A stretch of 64,000 bases of DNA. Source: an uncultured bacterium (GTDB taxonomy: Bacteria > Bacillota_I > Bacilli_A > RFN20 > CAG-826). Below are positions 21,001 through 27,000 of the stretch, piece by piece (positions within the stretch are counted from its first letter, which is position 1; each line of letters starts with the position of its first letter). The stretch spans positions 1-64,000 of the forward strand of contig CASDRB010000012.1 in NCBI GenBank assembly GCA_949283025.1. The letters run 5' to 3'. The position numbers were made by a program.

Positions 21001-24000
21001 TACTTTCTTGTCGACCCAATAACGTTTCTTCCTTTTAAATCAAACCTTTCAACTTCGTCAATCAACATTGCATCTTTAAAGAAACCAATATATTTGGTAA
21101 CCGTTTCTTTATCTATTTTTTTGTGTTTTACATTTTTGTAAGTATTAGCGATTCTTTTAGAATTAAGTAAATCTCCCGTGCAGCTACTTAAGATTTTACA
21201 TAGTTCATCTAATGATTCTGTTTTTGTTATTTTGTTATGTTCAATAATGTCTTTAAAATATGTTTTATTAAAAAGCTTTTTAAGATATTGTTCCTTTTCT
21301 TTTTTAGGAGAAAGCACCGCAAGAGGCATGCCCCCATGCATCATGTATTCCATTAGAGCATCACTTTTTGAACCACCAACATAATTAAAATATTCATAAA
21401 AAGACAAAGGCCTCATATGTATCTCTATCGCTTTATCCCTAAATTCAGACGCAACATCTTTAGAAAGCATTTTTGAATTGCTGCCTGTAACATACAAATC
21501 AATGTTTGGCTCTCGTGATAGCCCAAGTATCACTTCAACGAAAGAAATTGTATTTTCATCCCCCTCTTTCGCAATCACTATTTTACCATTGGTTAAAATC
21601 GGATTGATGATCCTGAAAACTCTTTGTATTTCGTCCAAAAACACATAACAATTATCTTTTTCTTTGCACCAGTTGCGAACGAATGCACCGAGTTTAAGGG
21701 GATTCAATAAATCCGAGTTTCTGTCATCATCTAGTTCGATAGTTAGAATATCATCTTTCTCAACACCATTATTTAGCAAATAATTTTTATAAATTTCTGT
21801 TAACAAGTATGATTTTCCACATCTTCTTACACCTGTAATTACTTTTGGAAATCCATTGTCTTTAGCTTTTATGAGTTGATCGAGGTATTTATCTCTGTTA
21901 ATCATACTATCTCCTTTTTTGTGTAATTACACATTTTTTGCGATTTCATAATATCATATATTCCTTTCCTCTTCAATCACTATAGAGGTGAATTTGTGTA
22001 TCTTTTAAATGCGAAGAACAAGGGAATTTTTTAGAAGCTCAAATGAGGCCTCTGCCGAGTGCTACCTCCGATACTAATAAAACCGACCAAGCAACTGTTT
22101 ATAAAACTCCAATCGGTTCTTCAATAATCGATTGTATTAGATGAAGCCGTTAATATATCCGCCATCAAGACCATAGACGATGACATTCTGGTTCAACAAG
22201 AAATATACTATGTAAGAAAAACGAAGCATAAGCTCCGTTATGGTATTTACATCAATTAGAGGATTTTATTCCTCTTTTTTTATGATTTTATGTCCGTGTA
22301 TCGACATTTAAGGGCAAAAAAATCAAAAAACGGATAGTTCAATAGTGATTACCCGTTTTATTTTTATGTATTTAATTATCCTTCAAGCCATTCGATTTTG
22401 TCTAAAATATCTTTTAGTGCTTCGCCATCAAACAATGGTTCGTTCATTAGTTTGTTATAAGCATCATCGTTTGAATTGCCTACCACTTCTATCCATTCTT
22501 TTATTTTGTATTCTTTTTTTTCGAATATACCAACAACATATTTTTTGTTATATCCCTCGATGTGATATCTTTGGCCTTTATACCCAATGACTACTTCGAC
22601 ATAGCGAAGACGCCATATCCAATCTTCAAATTGTTCTTTAGTTAATCCACTCATCTTTAATAAGTCCTTTCAAATACTTTCCGTATTTCTTGTGATCTTT
22701 TCTTGTATACAAATGCGTGTTCTCGCCATGTATCTTAGATCCTTTCCATTTATGAACGTGAAGTGTCTTATTGTGTCCAAATGGTGTATGCACTCCATAA
22801 TCAATATCCACCACTGGATGGCCTGCATAATCATAGATTCTTAATTGATAAAAATTGCTATTTTTGTCTAAGGAAATGTATTTTGTACCCTTTGTATGAG
22901 ACACAGCAGGCAATGAAGGGTGCGTTGGGTTTTCAGCGCTTTTAAGCACTTTAATCCCATTCTTGATGTCAACACAATCGTATTGATCCGGCATGCTCCA
23001 ATGTGTTTGCCCTAACATTCTACCACGGCTACCCATTGTTTTGTAACCTCTCATAGAGTCTTTGCGAAAAGCTCTTGTAGTAATGAATGTTTGAAAGTGA
23101 ATCTAATTCCTTAATGTGAGGACCACAAATAAGAATCGTAACAGGAGATTTTCTCTTATTTAACTCAAAGACTCCTTTTATAAATGTCTCTTTGGCAGAT
23201 TTGCATTCGCCTTTAAGACATCCATTAGATGAAACCGCAATAACAGAATGATGTGGCAGACCGTCAAAACACCACTCAAATGACTCTTCATCTGTCCAGC
23301 TAGCAACAGGGATGGCGAGTATTTTTTCTCTTTCCATCATGTAAACCGAGATGCGGTTTCTTTGAACGTTATAGATGTTATCCGTCAATAGCAAGCCGTT
23401 CATTACAGAATAATCAGCGGCAATAACGCCTTTGGCTTGTTTTAAAAGCGGAAGATATTTTTCTGGGTTCTTCCAAAACCTTTCAATCACAACATCGTTA
23501 TTAAACATATCTATCCAATAATTGGATAATTTGTCGCGATATTTAGATGAAAGCATCTCAGAAAAGGAAATAATTTCATCTTCTTTTGGTAAGTTTTTTA
23601 CTACCACCGTTTTTAATTTGAGAAACTGAAATTTACCAATGAATTCAGCGCCATACCAATAATGTGCTTTAAAATGGTCTATTACTGGATCGCCAGTTTT
23701 TAACTTCTCAAGCTCTAGTGTAGGTTTACGCCCTACAACGCCAACTTTTCCAATGTCGTCGCATTGCTCGGAAATTGGTTCCTCATAAATATTATTTGTC
23801 ATTAACATGACCTCAACTTTCTCCTACAGAAAAGATGTAGGCACTTTGTTTTGGACATGCTAATATATATTTGTCTACGTGCTTCAGGCATGTCCACAAT
23901 CGTAACCAGTTCCAGTGGTTGCGATTTTTTTAGCGTTTACTTTTTTCCTTTTCATGTGTCCTCCTTTATCTTATTTATATCTTCATATTGGCATAGTCAT

Positions 24001-27000
24001 CACCTCCATTTAAAAATTCTTCAACAATATCTTTAGAAGTTTTTACTTCAATATTGTTCATAACGCATTTCTTTTTTAATGTTTTATCATCAGTGATGAG
24101 GCAATATCCGTCGATAAAAGCATATGCCATACATAAACAATCATAAGTAGATAAAGATTCGTATTTTAGAGCAAATTCGCTTGTTTTGACTATTATCTCA
24201 TCTTTATCATTTGTAATTACACTTACTGATTTTCTGACAATTTCAGCCAATTCATCTGGTTTAATTAATTCACCTATTATTTGAGTTTCAGAAATATAAA
24301 ATTGGTCTTTATATTGCAATAAAGAATCAAGTTTGCCATCTTGGTAAAAAGTTATTAGAAAACATGAGTCGCAATATAAAAATTTCTTCATATTATTCTG
24401 TCCTCATATTTTGCATTACATCATAAAGCGGAATATGCAAAAATTCTGCCGCTCTAGAAATTGTTATTAATTCTTCAGATAAAGCTAAATATACTTGTTG
24501 GGTAAAAATTGTTGGCTTTTCAGAGTCCTTAACAGAATCTAAAAGTGTTTTTTCCATTTTTCTACCACCATTTCTATTTAAGAAAATAAAGTAGTTTTTG
24601 TGGTACATTTCTGTAATAACACCTGTTTCTAAAAGTCTATTTAATAAACAAGAAGGAGCAATTTTATATTGCTTAGCAATTTCATTTCTAAGATATGTTG
24701 TTATATTTCTATTTGTTTTACCAAATATAGAATAAATATCTTCATCGGGAATTAAAACATTACCTGCAACTTGGCTGATATATTTTTCAACATCTTTTTC
24801 CGACATGTTTTCTTCAGAATTATTAAAGAATAAATGACACGTTTCGTGAATTAAGGTGAATCTTTGTCTTTCAATTGTTCTAATTTTGGAATTGAAGAAT
24901 ATATAAGGAATGCCGTTTACCAATCCATTAATTCCGTCAATTTCATCAGAGCACTCAAAAGAAAGAACGATGATACCTGCATGTTCTAATACATTAGTAA
25001 CAGAATAAATTGGTCCAGAAGATGGGAGACCCAGAACAGATCTTATTATTTTTGCGTTATTAGAAGCACTATTATTAAAAGATAGTTTTTTAGCCTTAAA
25101 AATTTTAAAATTCAGCAAGCCAACAATATTCATCAAAGCAATACGCTCAAAACATTTATTTTCAATTTCACTTTTTAAAAGTTCGATATCATTTTTTGAG
25201 GCTTTTTGTTTTTTTCTAAAACTGACATGATTAAAAACCAAATTACTATTATTTCTAGAAAGTAATTCAGTCCATGGAATATCTAAAGCATTAGCGATAT
25301 TTTTGCAAATATCAATGCTTGGCTCCCTTTCTTCATTTTCATATAAAGAAATAGCAGCTTTAGTGCATCCAATTGCTTTAGCAAGCTCTTCAGTTGTCAT
25401 TCCTTTTTTTAAACGGTAATACTTGATTTTTTTGCCAATCATATTCTTCACCTCTGTAAACATTTTATCATATTTTTTTATTTTGTTAACAGTTAATTAT
25501 TGTGAGTGAAGAAAAGATTGTCCGTGTATCGACAATTGACCTTAAAACCATGTCCGTGTATCGACATTTAAGGGCAAACAAATGCTAGATTGAATTTTTA
25601 TTCAATTTAGATTTTTTTATTTTTATAATTAAACGTGTTTAGTTTAAAATTATCGTAAATATTTTATTTTCAATTAAAGGTAAGTTTTTAATAAAATTTT
25701 TGAACCAATATCATCTTTTTGAACTTCTAGACCATCAGGAATATATTCTTTTAATTTTTCGACATGAGAAATAATGGCAATTGTTTTATTGTCATCTTTT
25801 AATGTTTCTAAAGCTTTCATAGCCATATCTAAATAATTTTCATCCAACGTTCCAAAGCCCTCATCGATAAATATTGATTCAATTTGGATTAAAGCATGAT
25901 TTGTTTCAATAATATCACTCAACCCAAGGGCGAGAGACAAAGCAGAAACAAATTTTTCTCCACCGCTTAAAGAAGAAGCTGGTCTTTCTTTTCCGGTTTC
26001 AATATCATAAACATCTAAATCGAGACCTTGCTGGGCGTTGCCTTTACCTAGTGAATCTCGTCTAATCAATTTGTATCTTCCATTCGTGATTTTAAAAAGG
26101 CGTCTATTAGCTTGAATGATGATTTTATCAAAATATTCCGCTAACACATACATTTTAAAACTCAATTTCATATGATTAAAACCATTTGCAGTATTGCTTA
26201 ATTCATTCAATGATGCAAATTTTTGAATAATGTCTTTGCAGTTTTCATAAGATTGTTTTATTGATTCGATATCTTTTTTTAAATTAGATATTCTATTGAT
26301 TAAAACATTCTCTTGCTTATTTAAATCAACATATATATTTTTTTTCGTATTAACATCCTCGATAGCACTTGTTTCATCGATATATCCTTGTTTGATAATT
26401 TCTTTTGGAGTGTTGCTGATAATTGTGTTTGTAGTTATTGTTTGATTTGAGTATTCATCTAACTCTTTTTTTATTTTTTCAATTTTTACATTTAAATGGC
26501 ATTTATCGCCATCTAGATTAATCCATTTTTCATAATCATCCAAGCTGCATATAAAAGCGTTAGACTTTAATTTAATATTAATCTCATTATTAGTTTTTAA
26601 TAGATTATTTTTAGCTTCATTAATACCATCGTTTGCAATTTCTATGATTTGATTATATCTCATCTCATCAGTTACAACTTGTTTTTCCTTTGTTTGATAA
26701 TCATTAATAAATGTTTCAAATTCTTTCAATTTGTCATTGATTGCCGCGATGCGATTATTAATGACGTCTGAATAAATAAATTTGTTATCAGCGTCTTTAA
26801 ATCCGTTATTTTTCAATGTTTCAATAAACGCGTTTTCTTTTGTTTCAAAAGTTGATTTTGTAATATCTAAAGTTGATTTTTGTTTTAAGATAGCGTTGGT
26901 TAATAAAGTATATTTATTTTCAGCATCTTTAAAATCTTTTTCGCTGACAGGATTAATAGCACGAGCAAGATTAGGATGTTCAGTTGAACCACATACAGGA

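What a model noticed while it worked through the whole genome (the two positions that open the first line are those of the whole stretch)
22376..25442. DUF4417-led polymorphic toxin cassettes: tiny MGxRG-leader toxins plus immunity on tRNA-integrated elements
Two unrelated integrated elements (here, beside tRNA-Ser, and C2:61678-64354 at tRNA-Pro) share the order HTH/ImmA regulator, DUF4417 (g00696, g00083), an overlapping 126-132 aa basic ORF (g00695, g00084) and a small acidic ORF; across relatives and gut phages DUF4417 stays while the two small ORFs are swapped, and the basic ORF starts with Gly/Ala-x-Arg/Lys-Gly and has no signal peptide. DUF4417 folds like a minimal tRNA-guanine transglycosylase/DpdA barrel and is read as the enzyme that modifies or loads the free N-terminal Gly leader of polymorphic toxins, which is exposed either by Met removal or by the host L27 protease Prp. 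This would be a new, widespread toxin-immunity system and the [...]
Evidence so far: PF14386 in 22 of 81 RFN20 genomes. The ORF right behind DUF4417 begins with the leader in 18 of 27 order loci by a strict pattern and its body changes between unrelated nuclease/protease-like domains, each followed by a small acidic ORF. In 80 phage loci, 77 have GGRG at that place: 44 preceded by a Prp-type LQ[FY]F site, 28 as MGGRG; the genome encodes Prp (g00272) and L27 with NLQLF. AlphaFold model pLDDT 88; top three of 48,161 chains are archaeosine TGT Z 10.2, QTRT2 9.5, DpdA 9.5; two invariant Asp. Paper search for DUF4417: 3 papers, one read in passages, mentions only ParB fusions; GGRG/Prp searches found nothing related.
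(Added by a program. Inside this text positions count along the whole contig: contig position 1 is position 1 of the stretch shown here. "Call 12" and the like, gene names such as g00115 and contig names such as C1 are that model's own, and its searches are not shown. The text may have been shortened before it was handed on; [...] marks where a part breaks off. The agent that wrote the report below was given it as the finding of a first reader that could run no searches.)

Follow-up and report, generated by a model that had tools for sequence, protein, structure and literature searches.

The report
Glycine-tagged effector loading by DUF4417
A gut bacterium carries a small removable cassette in which a predicted base-swapping-type enzyme (DUF4417) sits beside a probable toxin with a short glycine-arginine tag and a probable immunity gene; the same enzyme-plus-tag pair lies among the late packaging genes of hundreds of phages, including the model phage D29, where it likely hooks interchangeable effector proteins onto DNA so that they travel with it.

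Summary
Observation confirmed and widened. The window holds HTH-ImmA, PIN-like, DUF4417, a basic ORF starting MGSRG and an acidic ORF, between 34-nt direct repeats; one strain lacks exactly this 3.26 kb. Only 2 of 1,048 called genes of the genome carry the tag, both behind DUF4417. In 147 of 160 phage/prophage loci a tagged ORF lies near DUF4417 (two or more in 53); conversely 58 of 59 tag-first hits have DUF4417. Tagged bodies fall into 47 families (ADP-ribosyltransferases, papain-fold, Ntox24-like). Phage copies lie in late head/packaging modules (D29 gp1/gp2) and almost never have an immunity-like gene; chromosomal copies mostly do. DUF4417 folds like TGT/DpdA (Z 9-10), keeps two aspartates, appears to lack the nucleophilic third, and has no QueC partner. 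Closest known: CBASS Cap10-CdnD, DpdA/B, MuF. Not found in print in ten searches; this scan noted the enzyme-tag pair earlier on other phage DNA.

The parts
22290..22323 (.). 34-nt direct repeat, left boundary of the removable unit
   Evidence: empty site in run X15; same motif ends islands in G014 and G018
22376..22654 (-). small acidic ORF (92 aa, pI 5.0), probable immunity protein
   Evidence: weak phrog_3711; no Pfam or NCBIfam family over cut-off; role inferred from position and pairing
22638..23036 (-). tagged cargo (132 aa, MGSRG start), Ntox24-like family, probable nuclease toxin
   Evidence: model pLDDT 84 with disordered N-terminus; no clear PDB fold match
23029..23808 (-). DUF4417, TGT/DpdA-like TIM barrel, predicted loader; invariant D105, D132, S134
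23975..24391 (-). PIN-like gene, probable partner of the regulator
   Evidence: PF01850 E 0.0014, below cut-off; same pair precedes a DUF4417 cassette in G033
24393..25463 (-). HTH-ImmA/IrrE fusion regulator (spr1629-like repressor/antitoxin, below cut-off)
25518..25583 (.). two further repeat copies (74% and 97% like the first), right boundary
20289..20379 (+). tRNA-Ser(GGA), 1.9 kb from the unit; a related motif lies inverted at 20386-20401
20598..21905 (-). AAA_14 + DUF4143 gene: neighbouring island gene, not part of the removable unit

Best explanation
DUF4417 is a predicted TGT/DpdA-fold enzyme that likely recognises a free N-terminal Gly-Gly/Ser-Arg-Gly tag and would couple the tagged effector to DNA, so that interchangeable effectors are likely packaged and delivered with the DNA; the window cassette is a chromosomal copy with a probable nuclease cargo and a probable immunity gene. 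Steps: (1, shown) enzyme and tag co-occur almost obligately, one enzyme with one to four unrelated cargos. (2, inferred) the tag is exposed by Met removal or by Prp cleavage at LQxF|GGRG. (3, inferred) the two invariant aspartates hold a DNA guanine as DpdA Asp95/Asp130 do; since the beta-8 nucleophile seems absent, the tag's N-terminal amine would attack C1' in its place and give a protein-DNA link. (4, inferred) in phages this happens late, beside packaging, and the cargo enters the next cell with the genome. (5, inferred) in chromosomal cassettes an HTH/ImmA pair would switch the operon on under stress or infection, and the acidic protein would protect the producer and its kin.
For: Association: 147 of 160 loci, 103 of 115 clusters at 90%, 0 of 160 on the opposite strand; converse 58 of 59 and 45 of 51. 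Several cargos per enzyme in 53 of 160: a tag read in trans, not a simple operon pair. Tag class follows the DUF4417 tree (9 changes against 28.6 shuffled; kin share labels, so this is weak). 208 cargo bodies form 47 families, among them ART, papain-fold, Ntox24-like, DUF6883, kinds that MuF carries into heads (PMC9503650, passages). Place: before the terminase small subunit or among head-tail connector genes; L5/D29 left-arm genes are late (PMC5712189, passages). Fold: top three of 48,161 chains are archaeosine TGT Z 10.3, DpdA 9.6, QTRT2 9.0; phage 'queuine tRNA-ribosyltransferases' follow the family itself in BFVD. ParB fusions parallel ParB-like DpdB, needed by DpdA on DNA (PMC10164549, passages). 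A TGT-fold enzyme binding a Gly-rich N-terminus has precedent in Cap10-CdnD (10.1101/2025.04.06.647259, passages). The Prp motif ends exactly at GGRG, near the start codon in 98 of 107 matches.
Against: No biochemistry. The fold match is modest (rmsd 3.5-3.9; a designed barrel scores 8.6; Foldseek PDB gives no hit under E 0.001; profile-profile with TGT is not significant). The residue mapping rests on strand order and range ends, not on a residue-level superposition. Loss of the nucleophile fits a non-catalytic reader equally well. No virion proteomics was found for any cargo. A protein fixed to DNA would have to pass the portal. Tags vary widely in chromosomal clades (27 of 50 strict; MKG, MGQG, MGMK, MGTG). 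Most chromosomal cassettes show no transfer genes, so their route of delivery is unexplained. 13 of 160 loci had no strict tag in the DNA held, and a Rubrobacter plasmid copy showed none. 0 of 71 loci held another LQxF-A/S N-terminus, so shared processing with head proteins is not shown.
Confidence: 0.37

Rival explanations
1. DUF4417 is a non-catalytic reader, as QTRT2 is: it binds the free tag (the arginine may mimic guanine in the two-aspartate pocket) and hands cargo to DNA or the prohead without a covalent bond.
For: No conserved acid at the beta-8 position (K30/P16/D9/E7 %); QTRT2 ranks third; cargos are basic (177 of 211 with pI above 9); same gene context as the best reading.
Against: D105, D132 and S134 are 98-99% conserved over 186 diverse sequences, as in an active site; some tags have no Arg or Lys at that place.
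Confidence: 0.24
2. DUF4417 puts a small modification (a base, nucleoside or nucleotide) on the tag, which switches the effector on or off inside the cell; nothing is tied to DNA.
For: Cap9/Cap10 precedent of a nucleobase on Gly2; a free N-terminus seems to be required; silencing could explain why phages need no immunity gene.
Against: No QueC/Cap9 in 0 of 53 phage records; G000 has only two weak partial hits; the tag is far from unrelated catalytic domains; ParB fusion points to DNA.
Confidence: 0.19
3. The chromosomal cassette works only inside the cell, as a stress- or phage-triggered toxin-antitoxin/abortive unit in which DUF4417 activates the toxin; nothing is delivered to other cells.
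For: HTH/ImmA regulators upstream, no transfer genes, neighbours such as HipA and methylases; cargo-acidic ORF pairing 61 of 61.
Against: It does not explain the phage arrays in late modules without antitoxin; it could hold for chromosomal copies alongside the best reading for phages.
Confidence: 0.12
4. DUF4417 modifies or excises DNA bases on its own (DpdA-like), and the tagged ORFs only share a recombination slot whose conserved 5' end gives the common tag.
For: DpdA-like fold and ParB fusion; shared 5' ends are typical of cassette shuffling.
Against: The tag is kept at protein level across Bacillota and Actinomycetota phages, up- and downstream of the enzyme, and behind a Prp motif; no preQ0 pathway (QueC) in 53 records.
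Confidence: 0.08

Closest known systems
Type IV CBASS Cap10-CdnD with Cap9 (N-terminal deazaguanylation; 10.1101/2025.04.06.647259, passages read)
   Same: TGT-fold protein paired with a partner whose Met-less Gly-rich N-terminus, M(G/S)G(G/S)GG, enters the pocket; proposed transfer of the protein onto a target.
   Different: Cap10 keeps the nucleophile D248 and needs QueC-like Cap9; DUF4417 loci have no QueC (0 of 53) and seem to lack that aspartate; partners are interchangeable effectors, not a CD-NTase; mainly phage late genes, not a defence operon.
DpdA/DpdB 7-deazaguanine DNA modification (PMC10164549, passages read; PDB 7ui4)
   Same: Barrel fold (Z 9.6), two pocket aspartates, ParB-like partner or fusion.
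   Different: No conserved equivalent of Asp256 found, about 215 aa without the zinc insertion, no preQ0 genes, tagged protein partner.
MuF-fused phage toxins and head-packaged ARTs (PMC9503650, passages read)
   Same: Polymorphic effectors encoded in head/packaging modules, ART among them; presumed injection with DNA.
   Different: The loading part is a 4-5 residue tag plus a separate enzyme, not a fused MuF domain; several cargos per enzyme; phage copies lack immunity genes.
T4 internal proteins with the capsid-targeting sequence (recalled, not read)
   Same: A short shared N-terminal tag on unrelated head cargos.
   Different: A dedicated TGT-fold partner; the GGRG tag is what remains after processing, not what is removed.
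Prp processing of L27 and of phage 80alpha capsid/scaffold (PMC5744158, passages read)
   Same: LQxF motif near the N-terminus; the host has Prp and an extended L27.
   Different: The paper gives cleavage F|A; here Gly follows, and cleavage is untested. The window's own cargo has no Prp site.

Membership tests
DUF4417 (PF14386) | Pfam match over cut-off | tested here: met
   103 bits against 28.9
TGT/DpdA transglycosylases | TIM barrel closest to TGT/DpdA | tested here: met
   top three of 48,161 chains, Z 9.0-10.3, rmsd 3.5-3.9; modest margin over a designed barrel at 8.6
TGT/DpdA transglycosylases | Acid/base and base-reading aspartates (DpdA Asp95, Asp130) | tested here: inconclusive
   D105 and D132 end successive strands and are 99% conserved; equivalence inferred from order, no residue-level superposition
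TGT/DpdA transglycosylases | Invariant nucleophilic aspartate at strand 8 (DpdA Asp256) | tested here: not met
   range ends place it near residues 245-247; no conserved acid in columns 238-249 of 186 sequences; mapping approximate
TGT/DpdA transglycosylases | Base exchange activity | not testable with these tools
   needs an assay
Type IV CBASS / Qat deazaguanylation | QueC-like ligase in the system | tested here: not met
   0 of 53 phage records; two weak partial hits in G000, away from the cassettes
Type IV CBASS / Qat deazaguanylation | Gly-rich free N-terminus on the partner | tested here: met
Polymorphic toxin systems | Conserved N-terminus with variable effector body | tested here: met
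   47 families among 208 bodies; ART, papain-fold, Ntox24-like
Polymorphic toxin systems | Cognate immunity gene directly downstream | tested here: inconclusive
   35 of 50 loci from relatives have a small acidic ORF and families pair 61 of 61; 1 of 46 in phages; protection untested
Polymorphic toxin systems | Toxicity and delivery to another cell | not testable with these tools
   needs experiments
Ntox24 (PF15529), window cargo | Pfam match over cut-off | tested here: inconclusive
   window protein has no hit; 2 of 25 aligned relatives match weakly, best E 0.00047; Atlas 0.90 to a cluster with 22% Ntox24
MuF toxins | MuF domain fused to the toxin | tested here: not met
   no MuF hit in the window or C2 cargo or in the cargos scanned

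The most novel reading that the evidence does not exclude
DUF4417 is a protein-DNA transglycosylase: it swaps a guanine for the N-terminal glycine of any GGRG-tagged protein, so phages staple effectors to their genome for injection, and bacteria have captured the loader with a toxin-immunity pair to booby-trap phage or mobile DNA that leaves the cell.
Probability: 0.25. Interest if true: 0.95.

Novelty: categorically new. Interest (0 to 1): 0.8.

Why it matters
The family is large (4,144 clusters at 50% identity) and includes genes 1 and 2 of the model mycobacteriophage D29, so it can be tested at once in a laboratory host. It would name a new route by which phages load and deliver effectors, tie together dozens of orphan phage genes through one tag, extend the TGT fold from base exchange to protein handling without QueC, and, if covalent, give a five-residue tag for joining proteins to DNA.

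Tried and rejected
Complex prediction of DUF4417 with the cargo was not available, so no binding test exists. Profile-profile comparison with bacterial TGT: not significant. Sequence search of the PDB: one chance hit. Foldseek PDB: generic barrels only. Cargo fold: best Z 5.0, no assignment. Acidic ORF: no family, Atlas under 0.9. Longer DUF4417 forms: two ParB fusions and three ART fusions in which DUF4417 is cut short, read as deletions or assembly products, not used. Promoter scan at chance level, 21 against 18.6. Conjugative delivery: only 5 of 72,556 plasmids carry the gene. Papers: ten searches (DUF4417; VIP2-like + mycobacteriophage; MGGRG; DpdA mechanism; phage + transglycosylase + N-terminal glycine; Prp + L27 + toxin; phage + protein-DNA + DpdA; polymorphic toxin + leader + Prp; D29 gp2 virion; deazaguanylation) found no description of the enzyme-tag pair; the three DUF4417 papers mention it only as a ParB fusion or in gene tables (passages). 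PMC7474061, 10.1101/2025.10.29.685425, PMC6893505 and PMC12445089 (passages) added nothing on it. Subscription papers are not searched, no supplements were read, and those of bioRxiv preprints are closed; they could hold data on ParB-DUF4417 or virion proteomes.
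Full report
What is in the window. On the minus strand lie an HTH-ImmA fusion (24393-25463), a PIN-like gene (23975-24391), DUF4417 (23029-23808, PF14386 E 1.8e-29), an overlapping basic ORF that starts MGSRG (22638-23036) and an acidic 92-aa ORF (22376-22654). 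A 34-nt direct repeat bounds them at 22290 and 25550, with a third copy at 25518. One contig of run X15 covers 20350-22324 and 25611-31000 with about 26 letters between, so that strain has the empty site; the AAA gene and sbcCD stay. In run X9 the unit is present but falls below 90% identity over 22468-22822, the cargo C-terminus and the start of the acidic gene. The unit has no integrase; three same-genus genomes go from tRNA-Ser straight to the gene at 29563, and islands in G014 and G018 end in the same motif. A second, distant copy (25% identity) lies on C2 behind tRNA-Pro with an MATKG cargo, a CPCC protein and a serine recombinase.

The tag is tied to DUF4417. Of 1,048 genes called in G000 by my simple caller, 2 start M[GASP][GST][RK]G, both behind DUF4417. 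PF14386 is in 29 of 101 relatives and 35 of 401 genomes of the phylum sample. In 52 loci from these genomes (a few phage-like), 50 had a next ORF, 27 with the strict tag; most others have variants (MKG, MGQG, MGMK, MGTG, MGGG). In the best 80 of 571 viral and best 80 of 563 genome loci, 74 and 73 hold a tagged ORF on the same strand within 6-7 kb, none on the other strand; 54 and 65 directly downstream; 53 of 160 have two or more; 103 of 115 clusters at 90% identity. The converse holds: of 124 viral loci found by the tag's DNA pattern alone, 81 were longer than 2 kb (73 with DUF4417) and 58 of the 59 with 3 kb on each side had DUF4417. With the Prp-type pattern, 45 of 51 had it; the six misses were four internal matches in one unrelated protein and two short off-frame ones. 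These loci are related and not independent.

Cargos. 208 bodies form 47 families; 177 of 211 have pI above 9. Named ones are ADP-ribosyltransferases, papain-fold toxins, DUF6883, zinc-protease-like and weak Ntox24; most have no family. The window cargo belongs to the commonest phage family (46 phage/prophage and 17 relatives' members). In relatives a small acidic ORF (pI up to 5.5) follows in 35 of 50 loci (my count), and all 61 pairs that share an acidic family share the cargo family (14% expected; near-copies inflate this). In phages 1 of 46 of that family has one. Cargo swaps are seen within the MKG and MGMK clades, none among nine ATKG loci. Four relatives' cargos and two phage cargos carry a Prp-like motif behind the tag, which could free the body from the tag (inference).

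Phage context. The module lies before the terminase small subunit or between head-tail connector genes. 508 GenBank phage records match, 385 of them mycobacteriophages. D29 gene 1 is DUF4417 and gene 2 has an unannotated start at 1063 that reads MGGRG; left-arm genes of L5 and D29 are expressed late (PMC5712189, passages). Cluster L phage JoeDirt has the pair far from head genes, among tRNAs, which fits less well.

The enzyme. The model (pLDDT 89) is a TIM barrel. The top three of 48,161 chains are archaeosine TGT (Z 10.3, rmsd 3.6, 182 aligned), DpdA (9.6, 3.5, 166) and QTRT2 (9.0, 3.9, 181); a designed barrel follows at 8.6. In BFVD phage 'queuine tRNA-ribosyltransferases' follow the family itself (best E 2e-4). 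Foldseek on the PDB and profile comparison were not significant. Over 186 sequences (from 347, below 80% identity) D105, D132, S134, G196 and G229 are 98-99% conserved, but no acid is conserved at strand 8, where DpdA has its nucleophile Asp256 beside Asp95 and Asp130 (PMC10164549, passages). This mapping rests on strand order and range ends. No QueC is present in 53 phage records, 39 of them at least 90% complete, so the Cap9 route of type IV CBASS (10.1101/2025.04.06.647259, passages) is not available from the element. ParB fusions recall ParB-like DpdB and point to DNA.

Mechanism. Shown: co-occurrence, arrays, swapping, place in late modules, fold, conserved residues. Inferred: that the tag is read by DUF4417 as a free N-terminus, that cargo is loaded with DNA, and that the link is covalent with the tag's amine in place of the missing aspartate (0.37). 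A non-covalent reader (0.24), a small modification of the tag (0.19), a purely intracellular role of the chromosomal cassette (0.12) and an independent DNA modifier (0.08) remain. Together the readings in which DUF4417 acts on the tag come to about 0.9. Complex prediction could not be run. The T4 capsid-targeting comparison and Met-removal rules are recalled, not read.

Novelty. Ten literature searches found no account of the pair (listed under Tried and rejected). Earlier notes of this scan describe it on other phage DNA, and one gave me the Cap9/Cap10 lead; they are not independent support. New here are the chromosomal toxin-immunity form with a proven empty site, the two-way counts, the contrast in immunity genes, the missing nucleophile and QueC, and the D29 test case.

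Noticed in passing
window 20386-20401, 22290-22323, 25518-25583; L366:1526, L371:1526: A repeat with a palindromic core marks the outer ends of islands at tRNA-Ser(GGA) in three genomes, and a related copy lies inverted beside the tRNA; no cognate recombinase was found in the unit.
   Followed up: partly
window 25674-29527: sbcC-sbcD and the AAA gene are absent at this place in three same-genus genomes but present in the strain that lacks the DUF4417 unit: an older insertion.
   Followed up: partly
L395:1063-2097 (phage D29): Gene 2 appears mis-started in the record (1318); the frame opens at 1063 with MGGRG and a long glycine-rich linker.
   Followed up: yes
L032:1070-2110, L399:1312-2313: Mycobacteriophage genes annotated 'VIP2-like toxin' here carry a papain-fold domain (PF15644 in the matching protein of L134), not an ADP-ribosyltransferase; each is followed by a small acidic-looking gene.
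   Followed up: partly
L398:3563-4309, L090: Some cargos have a long N-terminal extension before GGRG without an LQxF motif, suggesting another protease.
   Followed up: no
L397:3056-5078 (Gordonia phage Schomber): ParB-DUF4417 followed by a Gly/Lys/Arg-rich, histone-tail-like peptide rather than an enzyme cargo.
   Followed up: no
L047, L054, L023, L393, L188, L239: Prp-like LQxF-A/G motif a short way behind the tag, a possible release site.
   Followed up: partly
run X3, window 24443 to 22291: A low-depth contig joins the regulator's 3' end to the repeat, as if a shorter cassette without PIN, DUF4417 and cargo exists in another strain.
   Followed up: no
L378:2743-3093: A second acidic ORF of the family that elsewhere follows Ntox24-like cargos lies behind a CPCC gene: possible orphan immunity gene.
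   Followed up: no
L386, L393: Two different DUF4417 cassettes within 17 kb in G033 and in G403; up to six matches in one genome (G232).
   Followed up: no
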